Shown: one piece after another, positions 8,294 to 55,705 of the stretch
How positions within the stretch are numbered: position 1 is the first letter of the stretch
Layout of the letters: each line of letters starts with the position of its first letter
Program-made: the position numbers and the translations under genes
Assembly (NCBI RefSeq): GCF_030384885.1
Contig: NZ_CP128613.1
DNA: 64,000 bases
Direction: 5' to 3' (one strand)
Source of the DNA: Escherichia coli
GTDB lineage: Bacteria > Pseudomonadota > Gammaproteobacteria > Enterobacterales > Enterobacteriaceae
The notes under the pieces: model-generated
What the model saw: only the letters and a program-made list of their open reading frames with translations
Told to the model about the DNA's origin: nothing
Databases searched by the model: none

Positions 8294-9193
8294 TCACTCC
8301 ATCATCTTCTCAATCGGCAGGACCAGAATCGAACTGGCACCCAGCGCTTTCAGTTTTTCCATCGTTTCCCAGAACAGGGTTTCGCTACTGACCATGTGCA
8401 TCGCTACGCGCTGTTGATCACCCGCCAGCGGTAGAATGGTTGGGCGTTCGGCACCTGGCAGCAGAGCGATGACTTCATCCAGTCGGTCGGTTGGTGCGTG
8501 CATCATGATGTATTTTGATTCGCGCGCCTGGATCACGCCCTGAATACGCGTCAGCAGTTTGTCGATCAGTTGCTGTTTGGATTCTTCCATTTCGCCATCG
8601 CGTTGGATCAGGCAGGCTTTCGAGCGGTAGATAACTTCGACTTCGCGCAGGCCGTTAGCTTCCAGCGTGGCACCGGTGGAAACCAGATCGCAAATCGCAT
8701 CCGCCAGGCCGGCGCGCGGCGCAACTTCGACAGAACCGTTCAGTAAGCAGGATTTAAAAGAGATGCCTTTCTGATCGAGATAACGCTTGAGCAGGTGAGG
8801 ATAAGAGGTGGCGATACGTTTACCGTTTAAGGAGAGCGGGCCGTCCCAGGCTTCATCAACCGGCGTTGCCAGCGAAAGGCGGCAGCCTCCGAAATCCAGA
8901 CGACGCAGGGTAAAGTAGCGCGGATCTTCACCCTGGGCGCGGCGGTTAAGCAGCTCTTCTTCCAGCACGTTTTCGCCGATAATCCCAAGGTCAACCACGC
9001 CGTCCATTACCAGACCGGGAATGTCGTCGTCACGTACGCGCAGAATATCAATCGGCATGTTTTCTGCCATCGCGATCAGGCGCTGGGTGTGAAGATTAAT
9101 TTTAATGCCGCAGCGCGCCAGTAATTCGCGTGAGTCATCACTTAAACGGCCGGATTTCTGCATAGCTATGCGTAAACGAGTGTTGTCTGTCAT
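8294..9193 (-). CDS. hisG: ATP phosphoribosyltransferase
   Basis: ORF 8294..9232, start [15 protein letters not shown], first gene of his operon. Confidence 0.95.
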
Positions 9194-9241
9194 TTTCTTA
9201 TTCCTCTTTAAACCTGTCTGAACCGTTAACAACCGCGCAAT

Positions 9242-9274
9242 AAAAAAGCCCCCGGAAGGTGATCTTCCGGGGGC
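9242..9274 (-). terminator. his operon attenuator hairpin
   Basis: On the minus strand gcccccggaag...cttccgggggc stem followed by U-run, between hisL and hisG. Confidence 0.8.
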
Positions 9275-9338
9275 TTTCTCATGCGTTCATGCACCACTGG
9301 AAGATCTGAATGTCTTCCAGCACACATCGCCTGAAAGA

Positions 9339-9389
9339 CTAGTCAGGATGATGGTGATGATGGTGGTGTTTAAATTGAACGCGTGTCAT
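9339..9389 (-). CDS. hisL: his operon leader peptide (MTRVQFKHHHHHHHPD)
   Basis: Minus-strand 16-codon ORF with seven consecutive His codons, directly upstream of attenuator. Confidence 0.93.
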   Translation of the reverse strand: MTRVQFKHHHHHHHPD

Positions 9390-9614
9390 AAAAGTCTCTG
9401 TGAATGTTTATTCAACTGATGTCTTTTAACCTAAACCACTTTCACGTTAGAAAGCAAGGGCTTTTTTATATATTTTATGGCGATGGATTTGTTTAATGAA
9501 TGAGCGGGGAAAGGAGAGGGCCAGGAGTGGCTACGTTAAAAAAGTAATCGTGAAAATATGTCTTTAAAACCCTCAAGAACATTGTGTTCTGTAACTAAAG
9601 TGGGCTTGGTTCCT

Positions 9615-9712
9615 GCCGGATGCGGCGTGAATGCCTTATCTGGTCTACAAATGTTGCCTAAATTCAATATATTGATGTTTTTGTAGGACTGATAAGCGGA
9701 GCGCATCAGGCA
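9615..9712. repeat. pair of REP elements (BIME-like)
   Basis: gccggatgcggcgtgaatgccttatctggtctaca and inverted copy tgtaggactgataagcggagcgcatcaggca in intergenic space. Confidence 0.55.
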
Positions 9713-9815
9713 ATTGTATATTTGCTAACAGTTTCGATTTCATTCATAGAATGAATTGTCAGTTTTGATACGCTAGCGTAGCCTTATAGATCTAAGGTGT
9801 ATCAGGAGATAACGG

Positions 9816-10640
9816 ATGAAAAAGGTCGCAATTGTCGGGTTAGGGTGGTTAGGCATGCCGCTGGCGATGTCACTTTCAGCGCGAGGCTGGCAAGTCACCG
9901 GGAGTAAAACCACACAAGATGGCGTCGAAGCGGCCCGAATGAGTGGCATTGATAGTTATCTGCTTCGTATGGAACCTGAGTTAGTTTGCGATTCTGACGA
10001 TCTGGATGCCCTGATGGATGCTGATGCGCTGGTCATCACGCTTCCGGCACGTCGTAGCGGCCCCGGCGATGAGTTCTATTTACAAGCGGTACAAGAGTTA
10101 GTGGATAGTGCGCTGGCTCATCATATTCCCCGCATTATTTTTACCAGCTCAACGTCTGTCTATGGCGACGCACAAGGCACCGTTAAAGAAACCACCCCGC
10201 GTAATCCGGTGACCAACAGTGGACGAGTATTAAAAGAACTTGAAGACTGGCTGCACAATTTACCCGGTACTTCAGTCGATATTCTGCGTCTTGCGGGCCT
10301 GGTCGGGCCGGAACGTCATCCTGGTCGCTTTTTTGCCGGAAAAACCGCACCTGATGGTGAACATGGTGTCAATTTAGTCCATTTAGAAGATGTTATTGGC
10401 GCTATCACCCTGTTGTTACAGGCACCTAAAGGCGGACACATCTATAATATATGTGCGCCAGCTCACCCTGCGCGTAATGTTTTCTATCCGCAAATGGCCC
10501 GTTTACTGGGGCTTGAACCTCCGCAGTTCAGAAATAGTCTGGACAGCGGCAAAGGTAAGATTATTGATGGCAGCCGGATTTGTAATGAACTGGGATTTGA
10601 ATACCAGTATCCCGATCCGCTGGTAATGCCGCTGGAGTAA
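9816..10640 (+). CDS. yeeZ: NAD-dependent epimerase/dehydratase family protein
   Basis: 274 aa ORF, N-terminal Rossmann GxxGxxG (VAIVGLGWLG), synteny. Confidence 0.88.
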   Translation: MKKVAIVGLGWLGMPLAMSLSARGWQVTGSKTTQDGVEAARMSGIDSYLLRMEPELVCDSDDLDALMDADALVITLPARRSGPGDEFYLQAVQELVDSALAHHIPRIIFTSSTSVYGDAQGTVKETTPRNPVTNSGRVLKELEDWLHNLPGTSVDILRLAGLVGPERHPGRFFAGKTAPDGEHGVNLVHLEDVIGAITLLLQAPKGGHIYNICAPAHPARNVFYPQMARLLGLEPPQFRNSLDSGKGKIIDGSRICNELGFEYQYPDPLVMPLE

Positions 10641-13240: not shown

Positions 13241-13280
13241 TCTTACAAGCCGGATGACATAATCATCCGGTAAATCTCAA

Positions 13281-13311
13281 AAAGCCGGAGTTTGTCGCTC
13301 CGGCTTTTTTG
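13281..13311. terminator. bidirectional terminator between convergent plaP and sbcB
   Basis: A-run, stem gccggag/ctccggc, T-run. Confidence 0.7.
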
Positions 13312-13313
13312 TT

Positions 13314-18465: not shown

Positions 18466-18565
18466 TTCCTGTTTTATTCAATGAGGGTTGCCCGGTAACC
18501 CTCATTGCTCATTGTTTCTTTTCTGTGTATCACCGTCATCACTCCCATCTGATAACCTATTGAAA

Positions 18566-18841
18566 TTAGCGACAGCCTTCTTCTGTATGCAGCAAGGCAA
18601 AAAGTTCTGTAACTCCATTGTTATTAACCGCACTGGTTACTAACACGTTGTGCGCTCCAGCTTCCCGTAACCAACATTTCACCAAAGATATTTGTTCCAT
18701 ACTGGCTAAATCTGCTTTGGTTACTACTCCAATGACCGGGCGATTCATTGACGAGGTAAAGCCTGGCGAAAAAGGTGACCACGGTGCGTCCGCATTAAGT
18801 ACCAGCGCGATAATGTCTGCTTCGCAGGCACTGACCAACAA
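18566..18841 (-). pseudogene. EutP/PduV-family GTPase C-terminal fragment (relic upstream of cobU)
   Basis: 91 aa ORF with ...[12 protein letters not shown]...[11 protein letters not shown]... resembling EutP/PduV C-terminus; no N-terminal P-loop present. Confidence 0.4.
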
Positions 18842-19333
18842 TGCACTGTAAAGGCGGCGATTTTATTGGTGAGGACTGGCAGCAAGATTTCCAGCCTCTT
18901 AACGGTGGGCCTGTGCAATCGTTATCAGATGCGTATAGCGATTATTCAGTGCTGCTATTGATAGCAGCTGAAAGCGAGATATCCGTTCCAGAATGGTTCC
19001 CTCATTCTGAGGGAACGACGGTAATTTTGATTGCAGAACACAATGCCCGTTTGCTGAATGGTCCGGCTGGTGGGGCTGTAGCATTAATCCATTATTTGAA
19101 TGAAATCTGTCATGCCAGAGAAACCGCTGTCAATGACGCATTTTGTCGGACGTTAACACGAGGAAGTCTGGCTATTCCGCAATGCCATCTTCTTTCGTAA
19201 TGGATTGAGAATGCTGGATTTTTAATTATATTACGCGCAGTATTAATCGCGTAAATGTTTTGCGGTCAGCAACGGTGGGGGATCCATTGTTCTGTTCAAT
19301 GAATACCATCATACAATTGAATCAGGAGTCGGT

Positions 19334-22762: not shown

Positions 22763-22838
22763 TGGCTCCTCTGACTGGACTCGAACCAGTGACATACGGA
22801 TTAACAGTCCGCCGTTCTACCGACTGAACTACAGAGGA
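22763..22838 (-). tRNA. asnV: tRNA-Asn(GUU)
   Basis: 76-nt reverse complement of canonical tRNA-Asn sequence ending CCA. Confidence 0.97.
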
Positions 22839-23164
22839 ATCGTGTGAACGGGGCGCATATTAATGGCAGTGCATGGTGATGTCAAAGGGTGAAATGCATT
22901 TTTTTGTTTGTTTGCTGTCAATTTCAACAAAGTGGTGAGCTTTCAATCTTATTGGGTAATGAACCATCGTGGTGCATACCCTCCTTTTATAGGGCAGGGG
23001 AACGCGACAGCTGATTAAAGGAGCCAATGACGAATCTATCATAATCTCTTATTTGACAGTTGCTTAGCTTGTACATCAACGCCAAAATAAAACTGGCAAG
23101 CATCTTGCACTCTGGTTGTAAGTAATGGCGGCACTTGGGCCGATTCTTAAACACCGGAGGCAAC

Positions 23165-24082
23165 ATGAACTTCAGACGCTTGAAATACTTCGTAAAAATT
23201 GTAGATATTGGTAGCCTGACCCAGGCTGCTGAAGTATTGCATATCGCACAACCAGCGCTCAGTCAGCAGGTTGCCACACTGGAAGGTGAGTTAAATCAAC
23301 AACTTTTGATTCGCACAAAACGGGGCGTTACGCCAACTGACGCCGGAAAAATTCTCTATACCCATGCGCGGGCCATTTTACGTCAGTGTGAGCAGGCCCA
23401 ACTGGCGGTGCATAACGTTGGTCAGGCATTATCGGGGCAAGTCTCGATTGGCTTTGCGCCAGGAACCGCTGCGTCATCCATCACCATGCCTTTATTGCAG
23501 GCGGTTCGCGCTGAATTCCCGGAAATTGTTATTTATCTCCATGAAAATAGCGGTGCTGTGCTCAACGAAAAACTGATAAGCCACCAACTCGATATGGCAG
23601 TGATTTATGAGCATTCTCCTGTGGCTGGTGTTTCCAGTCAGGCTTTGCTGAAAGAAGATCTTTTCCTGGTAGGAACGCAAGATTGTCCGGGGCAAAGCGT
23701 TGATGTTAATGCTATAGCACAAATGAACCTCTTTCTCCCCAGCGATTACAGTGCCGTTAGACTTCGTGTTGATGAGGCTTTTTCCCTACGGCGGCTTACA
23801 GCAAAAGTTATTGGGGAAATTGAGTCTATTGCCACGCTTACCGCAGCAATTGCCAGCGGCATGGGCGTTGCAGTCTTACCCGAATCGGCCGCGCGTTCGT
23901 TATGTGGCGCAGTAAACGGATGGATGTCACGCATTACCACACCTTCAATGAGTCTCTCTTTGTCATTAAATTTACCCGCCAGAGCGAACTTATCACCACA
24001 GGCGCAAGCAGTGAAAGAGTTGTTAATGTCAGTGATGAGTTCTCCAGTGATGGAAAAAAGGCAGTGGCAATTGGTGAGCTAA
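23165..24082 (+). CDS. nac: nitrogen assimilation control LysR-family regulator
   Basis: ORF 23135..24082, start MNFRRLKYFVKIVDIGSLTQAA. Confidence 0.93.
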   Translation: MNFRRLKYFVKIVDIGSLTQAAEVLHIAQPALSQQVATLEGELNQQLLIRTKRGVTPTDAGKILYTHARAILRQCEQAQLAVHNVGQALSGQVSIGFAPGTAASSITMPLLQAVRAEFPEIVIYLHENSGAVLNEKLISHQLDMAVIYEHSPVAGVSSQALLKEDLFLVGTQDCPGQSVDVNAIAQMNLFLPSDYSAVRLRVDEAFSLRRLTAKVIGEIESIATLTAAIASGMGVAVLPESAARSLCGAVNGWMSRITTPSMSLSLSLNLPARANLSPQAQAVKELLMSVMSSPVMEKRQWQLVS

Positions 24083-24183
24083 GCGTTATATCGGGATGGA
24101 ATAAGATGCGGGTTTTTATTATTTGTTATGCCGGGCATTAAACTTTAACAATAACGTGATATCTGAACTGCCCGGAGTTTACC

Positions 24184-25134
24184 GTGAATTTCCAACAACT
24201 AAAGATAATCCGCGAGGCTGCACGTCAGGATTACAACCTGACAGAGGTTGCGAATATGCTTTTTACCTCACAGTCAGGCGTCAGCCGTCACATTCGGGAA
24301 CTGGAGGATGAACTTGGCATCGAAATATTTGTTCGACGAGGTAAGCGACTGCTGGGCATGACTGAACCGGGCAAAGCATTACTGGTCATTGCAGAACGTA
24401 TTCTGAATGAAGCCAGTAATGTTCGTCGGCTTGCAGACCTGTTTACCAACGATACGTCTGGCGTTCTCACTATTGCAACGACGCATACTCAGGCACGTTA
24501 TAGCTTGCCTGAGGTCATTAAAGCTTTTCGCGAACTTTTCCCGGAGGTTCGGCTGGAGCTAATCCAGGGGACGCCACAGGAAATTGCAACTTTGTTGCAA
24601 AATGGCGAAGCTGATATTGGTATCGCCAGCGAGCGTTTAAGTAATGACCCGCAGCTCGTCGCCTTCCCGTGGTTTCGTTGGCACCATAGTTTGCTTGTTC
24701 CACTCGATCATCCCTTGACGCAAATTATACCGTTGACGCTGGAATCAATAGCGAAGTGGCCGTTAATCACTTACCGACAGGGGATTACGGGGCGCTCACG
24801 TATTGATGACGCATTTGTCCGCAAAGGTTTGCTGGCAGATATTGTATTAAGTGCGCAGGATTCTGATGTCATTAAAACCTATGTTGCACTCGGGCTGGGG
24901 ATTGGATTAGTTGCCGAACAATCCAGCGGTGAACAAGAGGAAAAGAATTTAATCCGTCTGGATACGCGGCATCTTTTCGATGCTAATACTGTCTGGTTGG
25001 GACTCAAGCGAGGACAACTTCAGCGTAACTATGTCTGGCGCTTTCTGGAACTTTGTAATGCAGGACTGTCAGTTGAGGATATCAAGCGCCAGGTGATGGA
25101 GAACAGTGAAGAGGAAATTGATTATCAGATATAG
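24184..25134 (+). CDS. cbl: CysB-like LysR-family regulator
   Basis: 316 aa ORF MNFQQLKIIREAARQDYNLTEVA, CysB paralog. Confidence 0.93.
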   Translation: MNFQQLKIIREAARQDYNLTEVANMLFTSQSGVSRHIRELEDELGIEIFVRRGKRLLGMTEPGKALLVIAERILNEASNVRRLADLFTNDTSGVLTIATTHTQARYSLPEVIKAFRELFPEVRLELIQGTPQEIATLLQNGEADIGIASERLSNDPQLVAFPWFRWHHSLLVPLDHPLTQIIPLTLESIAKWPLITYRQGITGRSRIDDAFVRKGLLADIVLSAQDSDVIKTYVALGLGIGLVAEQSSGEQEEKNLIRLDTRHLFDANTVWLGLKRGQLQRNYVWRFLELCNAGLSVEDIKRQVMENSEEEIDYQI

Positions 25135-25135
25135 C

Positions 25136-25165
25136 AAAAAGCCCGCTATAAAAGCGGGCTTTTCA
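25136..25165. terminator. hairpin terminator between cbl and asnU
   Basis: aaaaagcccgctataaaagcgggctttt. Confidence 0.6.
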
Positions 25166-25171
25166 GAAATT

Positions 25172-25247
25172 TGGCTCCTCTGACTGGACTCGAACCAGTG
25201 ACATACGGATTAACAGTCCGCCGTTCTACCGACTGAACTACAGAGGA
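25172..25247 (-). tRNA. asnU: tRNA-Asn(GUU)
   Basis: 76-nt exact tRNA-Asn copy. Confidence 0.97.
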
Positions 25248-25407
25248 ATCGCTGTTGAGGCACATCTTAACGGCGAAAAATTTTTTGTCAAACCCGATTT
25301 TTAAATTCCTCAACTGTTTGCCGTTTCTATCAACAGTTTGTTGCATTTGCAGACAATTTGTCGGCAAAAATCTTTGCAGCTTTGCTGATTCTCCCTCATC
25401 ATTTGAA

Positions 25408-26895
25408 ATGTGGTTTCACTTTTTGCAATTAAGGTCGGCTTTGAATATCTCCTCTGCTTTACGCCAGGTTGTTCACGGCACTCGCTGGCACGCCAAACGC
25501 AAGAGTTACAAAGTGTTGTTCTGGCGCGAGATAACCCCGCTTGCTGTTCCTATCTTCATGGAGAACGCCTGTGTCCTGTTGATGGGTGTCCTGAGCACTT
25601 TTCTGGTCAGCTGGCTGGGAAAAGATGCGATGGCCGGCGTGGGATTGGCGGACAGCTTCAATATGGTCATTATGGCTTTTTTTGCAGCTATCGATCTTGG
25701 TACTACTGTCGTTGTGGCATTTAGTCTCGGTAAGCGGGATCGACGACGAGCGAGGGTGGCGACGCGACAGTCATTGGTGATCATGACGTTGTTTGCCGTA
25801 CTGTTGGCAACGCTTATTCATCATTTTGGCGAACAAATTATTGATTTCGTCGCGGGTGATGCCACGACAGAAGTTAAAGCACTGGCGTTGACTTATCTGG
25901 AGCTGACGGTACTCAGTTATCCAGCAGCTGCCATCACTTTGATTGGTAGCGGGGCACTTCGTGGTGCAGGGAATACGAAAATACCGCTACTGATTAACGG
26001 TAGCCTGAATATTCTTAATATTATTATTAGCGGCATATTGATTTACGGCCTTTTCTCCTGGCCGGGACTGGGATTTGTCGGGGCTGGGTTGGGGTTAACC
26101 ATTTCTCGTTATATTGGCGCAGTGGCAATTTTGTGGGTGCTGGCGATTGGTTTTAATCCTGCGCTAAGGATTTCGTTAAAGAGCTATTTTAAACCGCTGA
26201 ATTTTAGCATTATCTGGGAAGTCATGGGGATTGGTATTCCAGCGAGTGTCGAATCAGTGTTATTTACCAGTGGTCGGTTATTAACCCAAATGTTCGTTGC
26301 CGGGATGGGGACCAGTGTTATTGCCGGGAATTTTATCGCGTTTTCAATTGCGGCTCTTATCAACTTACCCGGAAGTGCGCTCGGCTCTGCTTCTACGATC
26401 ATTACAGGCCGAAGGTTGGGGGTAGGGCAGATAGCGCAAGCAGAGATTCAGTTGCGGCATGTGTTCTGGCTGTCCACTCTTGGATTAACGGCCATCGCCT
26501 GGCTAACGGCTCCCTTTGCTGGGGTTATGGCATCGTTTTACACCCAGGATCCACAGGTTAAACATGTCGTTGTGATTCTGATTTGGCTAAATGCTTTATT
26601 TATGCCTATTTGGTCTGCCTCATGGGTGCTACCCGCTGGATTTAAGGGTGCTCGCGATGCCCGTTACGCCATGTGGGTTTCTATGTTGAGCATGTGGGGT
26701 TGCCGGGTTGTAGTCGGTTATGTGCTGGGAATCATGCTTGGCTGGGGTGTGGTTGGTGTCTGGATGGGAATGTTTGCCGACTGGGCTGTGCGGGCCGTGC
26801 TGTTTTACTGGCGCATGGTTACTGGACGTTGGCTGTGGAAATACCCTAGATCTGAGCCGCAAAAGTGTGAAAAAAAGCCAGTTGTGTTGAAATAA
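25408..26895 (+). CDS. yeeO: MATE-family efflux transporter
   Basis: ORF 25255..26895 with internal start MWFHFLQLRS giving 495 aa; 12-TM MATE topology. Confidence 0.9.
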   Translation: MWFHFLQLRSALNISSALRQVVHGTRWHAKRKSYKVLFWREITPLAVPIFMENACVLLMGVLSTFLVSWLGKDAMAGVGLADSFNMVIMAFFAAIDLGTTVVVAFSLGKRDRRRARVATRQSLVIMTLFAVLLATLIHHFGEQIIDFVAGDATTEVKALALTYLELTVLSYPAAAITLIGSGALRGAGNTKIPLLINGSLNILNIIISGILIYGLFSWPGLGFVGAGLGLTISRYIGAVAILWVLAIGFNPALRISLKSYFKPLNFSIIWEVMGIGIPASVESVLFTSGRLLTQMFVAGMGTSVIAGNFIAFSIAALINLPGSALGSASTIITGRRLGVGQIAQAEIQLRHVFWLSTLGLTAIAWLTAPFAGVMASFYTQDPQVKHVVVILIWLNALFMPIWSASWVLPAGFKGARDARYAMWVSMLSMWGCRVVVGYVLGIMLGWGVVGVWMGMFADWAVRAVLFYWRMVTGRWLWKYPRSEPQKCEKKPVVLK

Positions 26896-26995
26896 ACGAC
26901 AAAGTGCAGATTATTTCAGCAAACGATTTCAAATTTAAAAAACAGGCTTTGACATTGTGGATGGGCGTCGCTAATATTCGCCTCGTTCTCACGAT

Positions 26996-27071
26996 TCCTC
27001 TGTAGTTCAGTCGGTAGAACGGCGGACTGTTAATCCGTATGTCACTGGTTCGAGTCCAGTCAGAGGAGCCA
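26996..27071 (+). tRNA. asnW: tRNA-Asn(GUU)
   Basis: 76-nt exact tRNA-Asn copy, plus strand. Confidence 0.97.
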
Positions 27072-33207: not shown

Positions 33208-36200
33208 TCAAATGTTTTTATAACATGTCACATGAGAAAATCCAAGTTTTGCCATTACGCTTTGCTCACCTGTTGCCAGGGAAATTTCGTATTGTTCATT
33301 GGAGTTTGCGGGACTAGATGACCAATACATATCTGAATAAAAATCGGCTTCATTCATGTAATGCCCCATATCTCCCCATTCACTGTACAATGTCCCTATA
33401 CCTCGGGAACGACCCTGGCTTAAAAGGCTTGCACGGGGAAGCATGTAGCCATTGCTACTGCAAAAATTTTCAGCAAGGCTGTATATCATGAAAGAATCGC
33501 CGGAGTTTACCCACCAACTCTTCACCCGGATTTCGTATATATAGCCAGGGCCTCCTGATTTTGGCGTCGCTGTAATCGTTACCCAACTGCTTCCGACATT
33601 TTTAAATGTCACTTTACCGGTAGCGTCAACATCGACCCAGGAGGCAGAGCTTGAAAACTCATAATCAGCCGCCGTTTTGCCCGGGGAAAAGTTGTCATTA
33701 TTCAACTGATAATAAGCCCCAGTGAACCCCTGCGAAGGGAATGTAGTTGTCGGTAGGTTAGCACCATTGACTAACACGGTACCGCTCATTATTTTGTCTT
33801 CTGCGCGAGTGAATTGTATTGTGGTACTCAGACCCGCTTGATGAACACCATTCAATACAGGGATCAGCGTTGCGATACCCTCTCCGCCTCCTATAACAGT
33901 GGCTTTGTAATCACCGTTGATATTTTGACTGTAATCAATTGCGCTAATTTTCACATAGGGCACGTTAGTACCTGATTGCACAAATTCCATCCCTTCAGAA
34001 ACTTTGATCGGATTGCCTGATATATCGTGCAAAACAAGATGTAGCTCAGCACTATCGGTATAGTCCCCTTTTAGTGATGACCGATTGTTCTTAAGGACGG
34101 ACTGCGAGGCGTCTGCCGGGCCTGCCACCAGCGTTATATTAGCTGTTTGCGTTGCACCTGTGCTCGTTCCTGCACTAACAGTTACGCTCCCAGTTCGCGC
34201 ACTTTTCAAGGTGGTTGTCGCAAATCCGTGTTGATCGGTCACCGCTGTTAATGACCCTAATGTGGCAGAGCCACTTTTTAATGCGAAGTTCACATTGACG
34301 CCTTCGACTTGGTTACCACTGCCGTCCTCAACAGTAGCCTTCAGCGTGCTGATATCGCTGTCGTTGGCAGTGATAGTTGACGGATCAGCGCTCAGGCTGA
34401 CCACATGGGCTGTGCTTTGGTTGCCAGTAACTTTCACGATTGTCTGCGCCTGAATAATTACGCCACTAGTGATAGATGCTGTAACCGTATACGTACCGAC
34501 TTTATTGCTGGTCAGAACGACTTGTGCCTCCCCGGAAGGATTGGTTTTCATTGTTTCGCTACTTAACGTTGCATCTTCTGGCGTTACGCTAAAGGTAACG
34601 AGTTCATTGTTCACTGGGGCCCCATTTGGATTGGTTAGCCTTACTGTCAGAGTTGAACCTAATGGGTCATTGATGCCGATAAGTGGACTTGATGCTGTGA
34701 GTGTCAGTTTTAAATCGATTACCACCAGGTCCTTCTCATAAGAGGAGCCATTCGCCAGGGATGCTTGCACAGTATACGAACCGTATCTATTGGGCGTCAT
34801 GGTGACCTCGGCTATACCCTGTGTATTCGTAGAGACCGTATCCTGACTAATGACCATGTTAAAAAATGACGGCTCTGCACTGAATGTCACAAGCTGTTCA
34901 GAAACTGGATTGCCAAACTGGTCGTCGACGTGCGCTTTAACCGCCAGGGGGGTTGCGACCATAACCTGACCTTCAGGCATTTCCAGACTGGTGATCGTCG
35001 CAGAATCAGCATCTGCTTTGACAGTCAACGTTTGCATGATGGTATCTGTAGGTGCATTTGCCAGATTAGCCACAACAATTTTCGTCCCTGCAATGGTGCT
35101 TGTTACAAGAATTTCTGCCTTACCCTGAGCATCTGTTTCAGCGGTGGTGTTACTCAGCGTGGCGGATAAGCCGCGGAAATTGACCTTGATGCCTTCTAAT
35201 GGATTGTCATAAGCGTCAGTGACACTTGCCGTCAGGGTCGCACCCTCGGTTGTGCTGGCGATTAATGAGCTTGATGATGCGGTAAAATCAGCCAGTTTAG
35301 CGGTACTCGCATCGGCAAGCAAAGTCACCGGCCTCGTATCACTGACACCATAACTGTCCACGCTGACCGTCACGGGATAGGTGCCGGACTTCGTACCGCT
35401 TAGTGTAACTTCCGCCTTGCCGTTGATGTCAGTAATGGCGGAACCGCCTTCTCCAAGAGTGAAGCTTGCACTCACATCTGCCGGTAGTGTGAATGTCACC
35501 GGCTCATTGGCTAACGGGTTGCCGTGTCCATCAGTCACCGTTGCCTGAAGTTGGGTCATCCCAACGTTATTGGCGATAAAGTTGTTCTCGGTAACGTTCA
35601 GATTAACCTGCGCTGTGAGCGTATCCGCAATAAAGTTCACCACCAACTGCTCACTCTTACCGCCAGCCATCGCTGCTGTCACGGTATGTGCTCCTGCTTT
35701 TGTACCTTTCAGTGTGACTTTCGCTTTGCCTTCAGCATCAGTAACCGCTTTACCGCCATCGCTCAGCGTGAAGTTTGCCCTCACATCTTCCGGGAGAGTA
35801 AATGTTACTTCAGTGTTGGCTATCGCATTGCCCTCTGTATCTGCGACTGTTGCTGTTAATGTCGTGAGATCGTTATTGTCGGCAATCACCGGATCTTTTG
35901 AGGCTCCCAGCGTGATTTCAGCATTCGCCACGTTCGGCACATAGGTCACTGTTTGTTGTATCGAATCGCCATTGTCGAGCGTTGCCGTCACTTGATAAAC
36001 CCCGGCTTTTGTAGCGGTAAAGCTTGCGTAAAAATGGCCGTAGGAGTTGGTAGTATATATAGCGTTATTACTGGGGGTCACACCTTCACTTGGCGAAACG
36101 CTGATGGTCACCTTATGTTGGGGTACACCGTTTCCGTAATTATCGTTTACCACAACATACAGATCGGTCGTGTTGCCTGCGGAGACTGTATCAGTAAGTG

Positions 36201-37251
36201 CTTGTAACAAGGTGATATGTGCCGTAGACGCATCAGCGTTGACATTAATTGATGTGCTAAGCGTGGAGCTACCATTTTCCAGACTGGCCTCAACGGTATC
36301 CGGCCTCCCTCCTGATTCTGCCGAGGAACGGGTATTGGTATAAGTGACGGTTGCCTTACCCTGTTCGTTCGTTACGGCTTGGCCGCCATTCGTCATTTCA
36401 GCAGAGTTTGTACTGCTGGTGAAACTCACAGTTACACCTTTCACCGGAAAGCTATTATTATCAACGACTGTCGCGGTGATGACGCTGCCGGTGCTATTCT
36501 GCGGGGTACCAGCGATTATGCTGTTTGGGACAGACGTCAACCCAATAATTTTTGCCGCAGCTGTGTCGCCAATAAAGTGCACAGTTTTGTGGTCGCTGGC
36601 ACCATTATTAGCAAGTGATACAGTGACCGTCTGCTCACCAAAGGCAACGCCTACGAGAGTGGCCTGCGCGATGCCAGACTCATTGGTATTACTCTCCCCT
36701 GGGGTGAGGGTGAGGCCTGAAGAGGCTGAGCTGAATGTTACCGGAAGATTGTTCACCTCATTGTCGAACTGGTCTTTAACCGTTGCAGTTAACGTTGCAC
36801 TATCGACGCCATTACCCGTGATCTCATCTTTTGACATCTGCAGGGCAACCTGAGCCGAGGTTTTGTCTGCCACAAATGTTACCGGCTGCGATTCACTGGC
36901 ATTGTTATTAATCAGCGTCGCGGTAACTGTATGCGTGCCCGCTTTTTTACCTTTGAGGGTGACATGCGCTTCCCCATTGGCTTGGGTGACGGTAATACCG
37001 TTATTTTCAAGGGTAAAGTTTGCCGCGACGTCTTGTGGCATGGTGAAATTCACCGCTATCCCCGCCACCGGATGATTCGACGGATCTTTCACTGTAGCTG
37101 TCAGCTGCACACTGTCGCTGTTATTCGTCACCACCTGGTGAGCAGGAATGTTCAGCGTGAGCCGCGCGTTGCTGGCATCGGGAGCAATATTGACTGTCTT
37201 CGAATCGCTATTGCCGTTAGGCAGAGTGGCTTCGGCTGTATGAACACCCAA
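33208..37251 (-). pseudogene. yeeJ: inverse-autotransporter adhesin, 5'-truncated (Big-domain array and C-terminal lectin-like domain retained)
   Basis: 1347 aa ORF of repeated bacterial Ig-like modules (VTLKGxKAGTHTVTA...) ending ...CYKNI; no signal peptide, LysM or beta-barrel region upstream; ORF abuts hypE fragment. Confidence 0.8.
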
Positions 37252-37286
37252 TACCGCGCCTTTTAGGGTAACTTCAGCAAACCGCC

Positions 37287-53432: not shown

Positions 53433-53640
53433 ATGTTATCTGGTTAATAATTTTCTTATGTAATATTATCTATGCCATCTGGCTATGTTTTCAATTGTTT
53501 TAGTTCTCGACAACTGTTTTTATATCCAGTATGATTTTACTCGTATCCGGCAGAATATTTTTAGATGCTGTTTCATGAACTCCGGTTGAAAGGTTTATTC
53601 TCTACTTTTGGGAATAATAGTTAAAATGGAGATAAGTGTA

Positions 53641-55077
53641 ATGACGTTTAGTAATGAAATTGAAGTTTTCATAAAAGATTTTGTTAAAGATCTTGAAAAT
53701 GATTGTGCTGCTATTTTTTCTGGCGCAGGAATGTCTAAAAGTCAAGGTTATGTTGATTGGAAAGAATTACTTAGCGATATAGCAGAAGAACTTAGTTTAG
53801 ACATTAATAAAGAAGACGATCTAATATCGCTTGCTCAATTTCATGTTAATGAAAAGAAAGGGGCTACAAAACTCACAAGGAAGATAATCGAAGAGTTTTC
53901 TGAGCAAGCCGAGCCATCAGAGGTTCATAATATAATTGCTCGTTTACCGATTAAGACATTTTGGACAACAAACTATGACACTTTAATTGAAGATAGTCTG
54001 CGGAAAGTTTACAAAATTGCAGATGTAAAAAGAAACATAGATGATTTAAATACAACACGACCTAAGCGAGACGCGATAGTATATAAAATGCATGGTGATA
54101 TTTCGTCCCCATCCAAGGCTATTTTATATAAAGAGCAGTATGAAAAATACTACAGAACACACGCTTCATTTATCACCGCACTTAGCGGAGATTTAATATC
54201 AAAAACCTTTCTATTCATAGGGTTTAGTTTTACCGACCCAAATCTGGATTACATTTTGAGTCGTTTGTATACTCATTCTGGGGACAAGAGGACACACTAT
54301 TGCTTTATGAAGAATGAGGCTAATAATTCCCTAGATGATGAAGAAACAGTAAATTATAAGATCAGAAAACAAAAACTGCGAATCGATGATCTCAAGAGAT
54401 TTGGTATACAAGTATTATTAATAGATGAATATTCTGACATCCCTAAAATTCTAGCTAAGATAGAGCAATCATTTAAAAAGAAAACGATATTTATTTCTGG
54501 TAGTGCAGAAAAATATGGGGATCTTGAAAGACCTAAAGCATTAGATTTTATTCACACATTAGCATATGAGATTATAAAGAATAATTATAGGATAGTGAAT
54601 GGATTTGGATGGGGCGTCGGAAGTTCTGTGATAAATGGTGCGTTGGATGCAATTTATAGTAGGCCAGATAAATTATCAGAAGAACAGCTCATTGTTAGAC
54701 CATTTCCACAAACTGTCAGTAAGGGGAAAGATATTCAAGAACTTTGGGAGGAGTATAGACAGAGAATGATTCCTCTTGGTGGTATTGCATTGTTTATTTT
54801 TGGAAATAAACAAGAGGAAAATAATGATATAGTTAATGCTAGGGGAGTATTTAGAGAGTTTGAGATTGCTGTTCAACATGGCCTTGTACCAATTCCTTTA
54901 CCCAATACCGGGTATATGTCTAAATATATATTTGAACAAATATCACAAGATCCTAAGAAATATTATGGAAGTAATGAATGGATATATAATGATTTGTCTG
55001 AGCTTACTGAAAAAGATTTTTCGGTAAAAAAAACAATAGAAGTTGTAATAAAAATCATAAACAAACTGAATAAATAA
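53641..55077 (+). CDS. thsA: Thoeris ThsA-like protein (N-terminal SIR2 NADase, C-terminal SLOG domain)
   Basis: ORF 53608..55077; SIR2 motifs FSGAGMS, TTNYD, HGD; C-terminal Rossmann-like FISGSAEKYG... SLOG region; length matches ThsA. Confidence 0.85.
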   Translation: MTFSNEIEVFIKDFVKDLENDCAAIFSGAGMSKSQGYVDWKELLSDIAEELSLDINKEDDLISLAQFHVNEKKGATKLTRKIIEEFSEQAEPSEVHNIIARLPIKTFWTTNYDTLIEDSLRKVYKIADVKRNIDDLNTTRPKRDAIVYKMHGDISSPSKAILYKEQYEKYYRTHASFITALSGDLISKTFLFIGFSFTDPNLDYILSRLYTHSGDKRTHYCFMKNEANNSLDDEETVNYKIRKQKLRIDDLKRFGIQVLLIDEYSDIPKILAKIEQSFKKKTIFISGSAEKYGDLERPKALDFIHTLAYEIIKNNYRIVNGFGWGVGSSVINGALDAIYSRPDKLSEEQLIVRPFPQTVSKGKDIQELWEEYRQRMIPLGGIALFIFGNKQEENNDIVNARGVFREFEIAVQHGLVPIPLPNTGYMSKYIFEQISQDPKKYYGSNEWIYNDLSELTEKDFSVKKTIEVVIKIINKLNK

Positions 55078-55093
55078 TATATTAGGTGAAGTT

Positions 55094-55705
55094 ATGGCTC
55101 ATGAAACATTCATATCATATAAATATAGTGAAGCACAGGATTTAAGAGACAAAATTGTCAAGGCATTAGGAGATGACGCTGTTTACTATAAAGGGGAGAC
55201 ATCGGAGTCTCCTGATATAAGTAATACAACAGTAGATAATATAAAGAACAATCTTAAAAATATGATTTTCGGGACATCTGTTTTAATTGTTATTATTTCC
55301 CCGAATATGATTAAAAGTAAATGGATTGACTGGGAAATTGAATATGCATTGAAAGAATACAAGAGAGGAGGAACCACTTCCCGAACTAATGGCATTGTTG
55401 GTGTGATAATGAAGGTTAATAATAGCTATGACTGGTTAGTATCTTCTTCAATCAAGCCTGATGGATGTTCATCAAGAACTATTGATACAACTAAACTATA
55501 TGACATTATTAATAATAATAGGTTTAATTTAACTTCAGAAGATAAATATTGTTGCCCTGAGTGCAAATCATATGATCAATTGACTGGTTCTTATATTTCA
55601 TTGATAGAAGAAGACCGATTTTTAGCAGATGTATCTTCATACATTGAAAATGCCTATGAGAAATCTAAAAAATTAAGTTCCTACGATTTATATAAACAAA
55701 AATAG
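55094..55705 (+). CDS. thsB: Thoeris ThsB-like TIR-domain protein
   Basis: 203 aa, N-terminal FISYKYSEAQ and SKWIDWEIEYAL typical of bacterial TIR domains; 16 bp downstream of thsA. Confidence 0.8.
   Translation: MAHETFISYKYSEAQDLRDKIVKALGDDAVYYKGETSESPDISNTTVDNIKNNLKNMIFGTSVLIVIISPNMIKSKWIDWEIEYALKEYKRGGTTSRTNGIVGVIMKVNNSYDWLVSSSIKPDGCSSRTIDTTKLYDIINNNRFNLTSEDKYCCPECKSYDQLTGSYISLIEEDRFLADVSSYIENAYEKSKKLSSYDLYKQK

What the first reader, a model, noticed from the sequence alone, without database searches (positions are those of the whole stretch)
9390..9815. No yefM–yoeB toxin–antitoxin between hisL and yeeZ; REP elements instead
The interval upstream of the his leader has no ORF of the size or sequence of the YefM/YoeB pair found at this position in K-12. 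It holds two REP-type palindromes. This records a variable accessory locus that is empty here.
Basis: partly seen in the sequence, partly recalled or inferred. Interest (0 to 1): 0.2.

Follow-up and report, generated by a model that had tools for sequence, protein, structure and literature searches.

The report
hisL–yeeZ spacer: REP pair, no toxin–antitoxin
[quoted passage not shown] This is a common, old and already recognised kind of strain-to-strain difference.

Summary
The 426-bp interval 9390-9815 lies between hisL (9339-9389, minus) and yeeZ (9816-10640, plus). Its longest ORF is 56 aa. It has no tblastn or Pfam similarity to YefM or YoeB and no TGTACA operator. It holds two inverted REPs (9614-9649 and 9682-9712) separated by a 32-bp linker carrying AAATTCAATATATTG, which is BIME-1/RIP-like architecture.

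"Empty" is only partly accurate. The site is dimorphic. A 211-bp core (9528-9738) here replaces a 652-bp yefM-yoeB cassette in K-12, between shared flanks (9389-9527 and 9739-9815). Among 5,426 complete E. coli genomes, 1,196 carry the REP core, including BL21 and O157:H7. The cassette is in 4,218 genomes and never on a plasmid.

Salmonella, Citrobacter, Enterobacter and Leclercia have only 162-178 bp at this position, with neither element. E. albertii and two unnamed Escherichia species carry the REP allele. E. whittamii carries the cassette. Both alleles are therefore old in the genus.

REPs at a toxin–antitoxin insertion site are already described for ccdO157. The finding is ordinary and of low interest.

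The parts
8294..9193 (-). hisG, first structural gene of the his operon (context)
   Evidence: ORF; PGAP annotation of the identical genome.
9240..9363 (-). His leader / attenuator RNA (context)
   Evidence: Rfam RF00514, 131.6 bits against a gathering score of 49, E 3e-23.
9339..9389 (-). hisL leader peptide MTRVQFKHHHHHHHPD (left border of the interval)
   Evidence: Sequence; annotation; identical in K-12.
9390..9527 (.). Left flank shared by both alleles. It contains the inferred his promoter on the minus strand (-10 TAGGTT = 9428-9433, -35 TTGCTT = 9452-9457). It also contains an Escherichia-only stretch at about 9471-9527.
   Evidence: 97.1% identical to K-12. The part up to about 9470 aligns with Salmonella, Citrobacter, Enterobacter and Leclercia. 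The promoter hexamers are read from the sequence and assigned from general knowledge of the his promoter; the simple scan did not flag them.
9528..9738 (.). Allele-specific 211-bp core that replaces the 652-bp yefM-yoeB cassette of K-12
   Evidence: Alignment and blastn breakpoints. Found full length in 1,196 of 5,426 complete E. coli genomes. GC content is 38.9%.
9528..9613 (.). Locus-specific non-repeat part of the core, with no similarity elsewhere in E. coli genomes
   Evidence: In one search, matches at other loci cover only query positions 83-202, which is the REP pair. The ATG of the 42-aa ORF at 9558 is ACG in E. albertii.
9614..9649 (+). Z-type REP in inverted orientation (iREP), ending in CTAC at 9645-9648
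   Evidence: Three stem substitutions relative to the copies in relatives. Weak hairpin, -4.9 kcal/mol.
9650..9681 (.). 32-bp linker with AAATTCAATATATTG (9660-9674). An IHF-like core ATCAATATATTG lies on the minus strand (9665-9676).
   Evidence: the same motif sits in the cmoB-torZ REP pair of K-12. The strict IHF consensus WATCAANNNNTTR is missed by one base, C instead of W. Ton-Hoang 2012 describes BIME-1 linkers as conserved and frequently carrying an IHF site.
9682..9712 (+). Y-type REP, starting with GTAG at 9683-9686
   Evidence: (pairs I1 and I5). Hairpin -5.4 kcal/mol.
9739..9815 (+). Right flank shared by both alleles. It holds the palindrome ATTCAT-N7-ATGAAT (9741-9759), a candidate yeeZ -10 TAGAAT (9747-9752) and the Shine-Dalgarno AGGAG.
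   Evidence: 100% identical to K-12. Conserved in other genera from about ATGAATTG onwards. The promoter-like site CTAACA-16-TAGAAT (9725-9752) straddles the junction; this is a consensus match only.
9816..10640 (+). yeeZ (SDR family oxidoreductase), right border of the interval

Best explanation
The interval is the non-coding REP-pair allele of a dimorphic intergenic site in the genus Escherichia. The site lies between the divergently transcribed his operon and yeeZ.

Species outside the genus have a minimal spacer of about 165-178 bp that holds only the two promoter regions. In Escherichia the spacer gained extra DNA and now exists in two forms that share the same breakpoints.

- **REP form (this window).** A 211-bp core made of 86 bp of locus-specific sequence plus a single BIME-1/RIP-like unit (Z-type REP, 32-bp linker with an IHF-like site, Y-type REP).
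- **Cassette form (K-12).** A 652-bp self-contained yefM-yoeB cassette with promoter, operator and both ORFs, ending at the yoeB stop codon with no terminator.

The window encodes no toxin or antitoxin at this site. The two forms are exchanged between lineages by homologous recombination through the conserved his and yeeZ flanks. That explains why both forms occur inside single phylogroups.

Mechanistically, the REP pair here is most likely a slowly decaying relic of REP/BIME spread. Spread by the REP-associated tyrosine transposase is inferred, not shown. The pair probably still binds IHF. Its main consequence is indirect: yeeZ must be expressed from its own promoter at the junction, rather than by read-through from the yefM promoter as proposed for K-12.

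Shown: the anatomy, the breakpoints, the absence of the toxin–antitoxin genes, the allele frequencies and the distribution across species. Inferred: the order of events (REP form older), IHF binding, the effect on yeeZ transcription and recombination as the means of spread.
For: - **Absence of the toxin–antitoxin pair:**
- **Breakpoints:** window 9389-9527 and 9739-9815 match K-12 at 97% and 100%; nothing between them matches.
- **Two near-exclusive alleles:** the 211-bp core is in 1,196 genomes and the cassette in 4,218 of 5,426, together 5,414; the cassette is never on plasmids.
- **Both forms within phylogroup A:** BL21 has the REP core and K-12 has the cassette.
- **Other genera:** the spacer from the hisL start to the yeeZ start is 162-178 bp in Salmonella, Citrobacter, Enterobacter, Leclercia and others, with no YefM/YoeB match.
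- **REP allele in other Escherichia species:** present with the same boundaries in E. albertii, Escherichia sp. E1V33 and MOD1-EC7003. Interval identity to the window is 91.5-95.5%, against 93-94% for yeeZ.
- **Cassette in E. whittamii:** 96.6% identical to K-12, against 93-95% for the flanks.
- **REP-pair architecture:** it matches the BIME-1 definition in Ton-Hoang 2012 and the cmoB-torZ element of K-12.
- **Literature:** toxin–antitoxin cassettes move as promoter plus ORFs without a terminator, and yeeZ is likely cotranscribed in K-12 (Ramisetty 2016, PMC5120126). REPs occupy the folA-apaH site that holds ccd in O157:H7 (Fraikin 2020, PMC7167474).
Against: - **Order of events is not proven.** Both alleles show divergence comparable to their flanks, so the cassette could be equally old. 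E. fergusonii, E. marmotae and E. ruysiae were not recovered by the scan.
- **Unusual position.** REP pairs usually lie at the 3' ends of transcription units. This one lies between divergent promoters, which the relic idea does not explain.
- **IHF site is imperfect.** The strict consensus is missed by one base.
- **Hairpins are weak.** Each REP hairpin alone is marginal.
- **No transcription data were available.**
- **Search limit.** The DNA search detects only copies at least about 85% identical, so a divergent yefM-yoeB paralogue elsewhere in this strain's genome cannot be excluded.
Confidence: 0.85

Rival explanations
1. Recent loss. The ancestor of this strain carried yefM-yoeB as K-12 does. 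The cassette was deleted and REPs later colonised the scar, like the decay described for chromosomal ccdO157.
For: The cassette allele is the majority form in E. coli, 78% of complete genomes. Toxin–antitoxin loci are known to decay and to be unevenly distributed.
Against: There is no remnant of yefM, yoeB or the operator in the core. The same 211-bp core, with the same junctions, occurs in E. albertii and two other Escherichia species at flank-like divergence. Within E. coli the core already shows 95-99% diversity across 1,185 genomes, which does not fit a recent event.
Confidence: 0.07
2. The 211-bp core encodes an unannotated small protein or small RNA. Candidates are the 42-aa ORF at 9558-9686 (plus), the 56-aa ORF at 9536-9706 (minus), or a transcript ending in the REP pair. 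On this view the site is not functionally empty.
For: REP pairs normally sit at the 3' ends of transcripts, so a short transcript ending there is conceivable. Promoter-like hexamers occur inside the linker. One study reports that most REPs are transcribed.
Against: Both ORFs run through the REP sequences. The ATG at 9558 is ACG in E. albertii. No Pfam match. No Rfam match beyond a sub-threshold REP-derived naRNA4 hit of 19.9 bits against a gathering score of 59.5. PGAP annotates nothing here in any genome listed.
Confidence: 0.06
3. Chance palindromes. The two hairpins are not REP family members but fortuitous GC-rich inverted repeats.
For: The individual hairpins are thermodynamically marginal, z -1.3 and -1.9.
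Against: The unit is 81% identical over 101 aligned columns to a REP-linker-REP unit at another locus, cmoB-torZ. It has GTAG and CTAC at the correct feet. 738 further genomes have their best match at 80-90% identity, and in the rows listed these lie at another locus and cover only the REP pair. Relatives carry near-consensus versions, for example MOD1-EC7003.
Confidence: 0.02

Closest known systems
yefM-yoeB locus of E. coli K-12 (b2017/b4539), between hisL and yeeZ
   Same: Same chromosomal site. The flanks are 97% (left) and 100% (right) identical, and the neighbouring genes are the same.
   Different: The 652-bp cassette (promoter, TGTACA operators, yefM, yoeB) is entirely absent. A 211-bp non-coding core with a REP pair takes its place.
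BIME-1 / RIP / RIB elements of E. coli (Y REP, long L linker with IHF site, Z1 REP), e.g. the cmoB-torZ element
   Same: Two inverted REPs with GTAG and CTAC feet. It is a single copy with a roughly 32-bp linker carrying AATTCAATATATTG, and is 81% identical to the cmoB-torZ unit.
   Different: It lies between two divergent promoters rather than at the 3' end of a transcription unit. The stems have decayed. The Z1 versus Z2 subtype and IHF binding were not established.
folA-apaH site: ccdO157 toxin–antitoxin system in O157:H7 versus REP sequences in other strains (Mine 2009, as reviewed by Fraikin 2020)
   Same: One intergenic site that holds a type II toxin–antitoxin cassette in some strains and REPs in others.
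   Different: A different toxin–antitoxin family and a different site. Here O157:H7 carries the REP form and K-12 the cassette form. The REP form is shown here to extend to other Escherichia species.

Membership tests
YefM-YoeB type II toxin-antitoxin system | Antitoxin ORF of the Phd/YefM family (about 83 aa) | tested here: not met
   The longest ORF in the interval is 56 aa. tblastn with K-12 YefM gives only a 9-residue match at E=39 inside the interval. Pfam is negative.
YefM-YoeB type II toxin-antitoxin system | YoeB toxin ORF (about 84 aa) overlapping the antitoxin stop codon | tested here: not met
   tblastn with K-12 YoeB gives a best E-value of 1.5 anywhere in the window and no match in the interval. 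Pfam is negative.
YefM-YoeB type II toxin-antitoxin system | Autoregulated promoter with paired TGTACA operator palindromes | tested here: not met
   TGTACA occurs twice in the K-12 interval and not at all in window 9390-9815.
REP / BIME-1 (RIP, RIB) | Two REP units in inverted orientation, one starting with GTAG and the other ending with CTAC | tested here: met
   CTAC at 9645 and GTAG at 9683. Inverted-repeat pairs I1 and I5.
REP / BIME-1 (RIP, RIB) | Sequence similarity to established E. coli REP units of Y and Z type | tested here: met
   GCCGGATGCGGCG and GCCTGATGCGCTC cores. 81% identity over 101 aligned columns to the K-12 cmoB-torZ element.
REP / BIME-1 (RIP, RIB) | Single copy with a long conserved L linker (as opposed to tandem arrays with short linkers in BIME-2) | tested here: met
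   One unit only, with a 32-bp linker that shares AATTCAATATATTG with the cmoB-torZ element. Definition taken.
REP / BIME-1 (RIP, RIB) | IHF binding site in the linker | tested here: inconclusive
   ATCAATATATTG matches ATCAANNNNTTR, but the strict WATCAANNNNTTR is missed at the first base. Binding cannot be tested with these tools.
REP / BIME-1 (RIP, RIB) | The Z unit is of subtype Z1 rather than Z2 | not tested
   The consensus sequences are in a figure of Ton-Hoang 2012 that the tools do not hold. The subtype is inferred only from the linker type.
REP / BIME-1 (RIP, RIB) | Imperfect palindrome able to form a stem-loop | tested here: inconclusive
   Single units fold at -4.9 and -5.4 kcal/mol, z -1.3 and -1.9. 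The whole pair folds with z -3.3. The stems carry substitutions relative to copies in related species.
REP / BIME-1 (RIP, RIB) | Extragenic location at the 3' end of, or within, a transcription unit | tested here: not met
   The location is extragenic, but it lies between the divergent hisL and yeeZ starts. This is a typical location, not a structural requirement of the family.

The most novel reading that the evidence does not exclude
The hisL-yeeZ site may be a long-lived dimorphism that crosses species boundaries. On this reading a toxin–antitoxin cassette and a REP pair are alternative occupants of exactly the same breakpoints. The cassette would then have entered by a REP- or palindrome-directed mechanism rather than at random. 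Two observations are consistent with this: a perfect 10-bp-stem palindrome spans the left junction in K-12, and the right junction falls at the yoeB stop codon. Together with the folA-apaH/ccd case, this would point to a general link between REP sites and integration of chromosomal toxin–antitoxin cassettes, whose mechanism is still unknown.
Probability: 0.2. Interest if true: 0.4.

Novelty: already known. Interest (0 to 1): 0.12.

Why it matters
It matters little on its own. It records that this strain lacks the chromosomal YefM-YoeB system, as do BL21, O157:H7 and about 22% of complete E. coli genomes. That is relevant when K-12 toxin–antitoxin or persistence results are extrapolated to other strains. 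It also bears on yeeZ expression, which may be driven by the yefM promoter in K-12 but cannot be here.

The one point of wider interest is the second documented case of a type II toxin–antitoxin cassette and REP sequences alternating at one intergenic site. Both forms are old in the genus. This could help to test how chromosomal toxin–antitoxin cassettes integrate.

Tried and rejected
- **Degraded cassette.** I looked for remnants of the cassette in the 211-bp core. blastn with word size 7 using the K-12 interval finds only the two flanks. An apparent resemblance of ATTGTGTTCTGTAAC to the yefM operator was judged to be chance because TGTACA is absent.
- **K-12 REP annotation.** I tried to type the REP pair from the REP/RIP annotation of K-12. 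The RefSeq feature tables returned for the hisL–yeeZ and cmoB–torZ regions list no repeat features there.
- **RIB/IHF paper.** I tried to read Boccard & Prentki 1993 (PMC413762). It is not held.
- **MITE hypothesis.** I considered that the Escherichia-specific insert is a MITE with terminal inverted repeats and a target duplication, because AATGAAT occurs at both ends and one search reports pair I2. I rejected this. The right-hand copy is ancestral sequence also present in Salmonella, and the insert ends are not inverted repeats.
- **Rfam.** Only the His leader passes threshold. The naRNA4 match at 9609-9645 (19.9 bits against a gathering score of 59.5) is generic REP similarity.
- **Terminators.** The terminator scan found nothing in 9200-9900. 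The scan also misses the known his attenuator terminator, so a negative result from it carries little weight.
- **Literature.** Searches for an explicit description of the hisL-yeeZ REP allele found none in the open-access library. Fiedoruk 2015 and Ramisetty & Santhosh 2016 (FEMS) are not held and may describe it.

Full report
**What is at the coordinates.** The window is E. coli chromosome. The 901 bases around the finding are 100% identical to strain 2013C-4282 (CP027579.1), and 5,423 of 5,426 complete E. coli genomes match the flanks. On the minus strand lie hisG (8294-9193), the His leader RNA (9240-9363; Rfam RF00514, 131.6 bits) and hisL (9339-9389). On the plus strand yeeZ starts at 9816. 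The finding's interval, 9390-9815, is exactly the 426-bp divergent spacer between the hisL and yeeZ start codons.

**Is yefM-yoeB absent?** Yes.
- K-12 has yoeB and yefM between yeeZ and hisL, in an 867-bp spacer.
- In the window the longest ORF inside the interval is 56 aa, against 83 and 84 aa for YefM and YoeB.
- tblastn with the K-12 proteins against all 64 kb, at a permissive setting, gives a best E-value of 0.8. Inside the interval there is only one 9-residue match at E=39.
- Pfam finds no family below E=0.1 in the six ORFs scanned (23-56 aa).
- The TGTACA operator hexamer occurs twice in the K-12 spacer and not at all here.

**Are there two REP palindromes?** Yes.
- The unit at 9614-9649 (TGCCGGATGCGGCGTGAATGCCTTATCTGGTCTACA) is a Z-type REP in the inverted orientation and ends in CTAC.
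- The unit at 9682-9712 (TGTAGGACTGATAAGCGGAGCGCATCAGGCA) is a Y-type REP and begins with GTAG.
- Between them is a 32-bp linker containing AAATTCAATATATTG.
- The whole unit is 81% identical over 101 aligned columns to the REP-linker-REP element between cmoB and torZ in K-12 and strain D1, including the linker motif.

By the definitions in Ton-Hoang et al. 2012 (PMC3333891), a single-copy Y plus Z pair with a long conserved linker that often carries an IHF site is a BIME-1. The linker here has ATCAATATATTG on the minus strand. This fits ATCAANNNNTTR but misses the strict WATCAANNNNTTR at the first base, so IHF binding is plausible but not shown. I could not test Z1 versus Z2.

The stems are decayed. 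Each hairpin alone is marginal (-4.9 and -5.4 kcal/mol, z -1.3 and -1.9). The copy in Escherichia sp. MOD1-EC7003 is near consensus. The pair as a whole folds better than all 200 shuffles (z -3.3).

**"Empty" is only partly the right word.** Alignment and blastn against K-12 show two shared flanks, 9389-9527 (97.1%) and 9739-9815 (100%). Between them the window has 211 bp (9528-9738, 38.9% GC) and K-12 has 652 bp (44% GC), with no similarity between the two. The K-12 segment is a compact cassette of about 145 bp of promoter and operator, then yefM, then yoeB. It ends at the yoeB stop codon (TGA|ACAG). This agrees with the statement that transferable toxin–antitoxin units consist of promoter/operator and ORFs without a terminator, and that yeeZ is likely cotranscribed (Ramisetty et al. 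2016, PMC5120126). The window segment is 86 bp of locus-specific sequence plus the REP pair and a short tail. Elsewhere in E. coli genomes only the REP-pair part finds matches.

**Population frequencies.** The 211-bp core is present at full length in 1,196 of 5,426 complete genomes. These include BL21 and many O157:H7, and most copies are 95-99% identical. The 652-bp cassette is present in 4,218 genomes, always chromosomal, at 95-100% identity. The two sets sum to 5,414, and independently gives 1,193 genomes with an unbroken match to the window allele. The two forms therefore behave as near-exclusive alleles of one site. Both occur within phylogroup A (K-12 versus BL21). The window's hisG and yeeZ are only about 96.5% identical to K-12. 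This fits the well-known high diversity and recombination around his-rfb (general knowledge). I did not map alleles on a tree.

**Which state is older?** A scan of one genome per species for the hisL coding pattern returned 48 loci.
- In Salmonella, Citrobacter, Enterobacter, Leclercia, Kosakonia, Atlantibacter and others, the distance from the hisL start to the yeeZ start is only 162-178 bp. (One Kosakonia locus, L049, has about 450 bp and was not examined.) No locus outside Escherichia has a YefM/YoeB match.
- Within Escherichia, E. albertii, Escherichia sp. E1V33 and Escherichia sp. MOD1-EC7003 have a 425-bp spacer that aligns end to end with the window, REP pair included. Interval identity is 91.5-95.5%, against 93-94% for yeeZ.
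- E. whittamii has the cassette. It is 96.6% identical to K-12, against 93-95% for the flanks.
- Both alleles share about 57 bp of Escherichia-only sequence at the left (about 9471-9527).

One allele therefore arose from the other by replacement of the core. Both are old, and neither is a recent deletion or insertion in this strain. I favour the REP form as the older one because it occurs in the most divergent species sampled. This is an inference. E. fergusonii, E. marmotae and E. ruysiae were not recovered.

**Likely function and consequences.** The his promoter region is in the shared, cross-genus conserved left flank, so it should be unaffected by the allele. The -10 TAGGTT (9428-9433) and -35 TTGCTT (9452-9457) on the minus strand are read from the sequence and assigned from general knowledge.

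On the yeeZ side, a promoter-like site CTAACA-16-TAGAAT (9725-9752) straddles the right junction. Its -10 is shared and its -35 is allele-specific. In K-12 yeeZ may also be read through from the yefM promoter. The most concrete predicted consequence of the allele is therefore a different transcriptional input to yeeZ.

The REP pair itself is best explained as a decaying relic of REP/BIME spread that may still bend DNA through IHF. Its position between divergent promoters is atypical for REP pairs, and I have no explanation for it.

**Comparison with what is known.** Uneven distribution of type II toxin–antitoxin systems among E. coli strains is established (Fiedoruk 2015, cited). A review states that toxin–antitoxin insertion sites are plastic, and that REP sequences occupy the folA-apaH site that holds ccd in O157:H7 (Fraikin et al. 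2020, PMC7167474). The present site is the same phenomenon with the roles of the strains reversed.

I found no open-access description of the hisL-yeeZ REP allele specifically, and two relevant papers are not held. The sequence is present in over a thousand public genomes, and nothing here is unexpected. I rate it already known and of low interest.

**Residual novelty.** At the K-12 left junction a perfect 10-bp-stem palindrome (GCTAAGAGGAC T GTCCTCTTAGC, -9.6 kcal/mol, z -4.3) has one arm largely in the shared flank and the other in the cassette. Combined with the exact reuse of breakpoints by a REP-containing alternative, this leaves open a REP- or palindrome-linked integration route for toxin–antitoxin cassettes. 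I give that reading a probability of about 0.2.

Noticed in passing
window 13241-13313: Only 73 bp separate the convergent plaP and sbcB genes. K-12 carries tsuA-tsuB (yeeE-yeeD, thiosulfate transporter and sulfurtransferase) at this position. This is another presence/absence difference from K-12 close to the finding.
   Followed up: partly
window about 18466-19333: Between tmaR and cobU there is only a EutP/PduV pseudogene fragment and a hypothetical ORF. K-12 has the 12.7-kb CP4-44 cryptic prophage here, with flu and the cbtA/cbeA toxin–antitoxin pair. The window therefore lacks two K-12 toxin–antitoxin loci within 10 kb.
   Followed up: partly
window about 37279-37283: The window is collinear and 99.99% identical with CP027579.1 up to 37283. 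It then lacks 7.1 kb of that genome: the 5' part of a 2,662-aa Ig-like adhesin gene, a LysR regulator, a cysteine hydrolase, hypE and the start of hypF. This leaves a truncated 1,347-aa ORF at 33208-37251.
   Followed up: partly
window about 43884-64000: After a tRNA-Ser gene the window departs from CP027579.1 into a low-GC island (31-43% GC). It holds a DUF6387 protein (44105-45007), a NACHT-domain protein (46832-48682) and a Thoeris-like pair: SIR2+STALD ThsA at 53608-55077 and TIR ThsB at 55094-55705. It also holds a MobA/MobL relaxase (58888-60369, minus), PilS (61713-62270) and a shufflon-type PilV-like protein (62323-63759). This looks like a mobilisable island carrying phage defence genes.
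   Followed up: partly
L001 3340-3366 (K-12, left junction of the yefM-yoeB cassette): A perfect palindrome, GCTAAGAGGAC T GTCCTCTTAGC (-9.6 kcal/mol, z -4.3), spans the junction between the shared flank and the cassette. Its left arm is mostly flank sequence that is also present in REP-allele species.
   Followed up: partly
window 9741-9759: A dyad ATTCAT-N7-ATGAAT lies just upstream of yeeZ, overlaps the candidate -10 and is conserved in all Escherichia alleles. It could be a regulator binding site; the LysR-type gene yeeY lies immediately downstream of yeeZ. This was not tested.
   Followed up: no
window 22763-27071 and 42720-42826: Four tRNA-Asn genes, 92-100% identical to one another in the repeated stretches, lie in this stretch. 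Integrase gene fragments sit next to the last one. These are classic island-integration sites.
   Followed up: no
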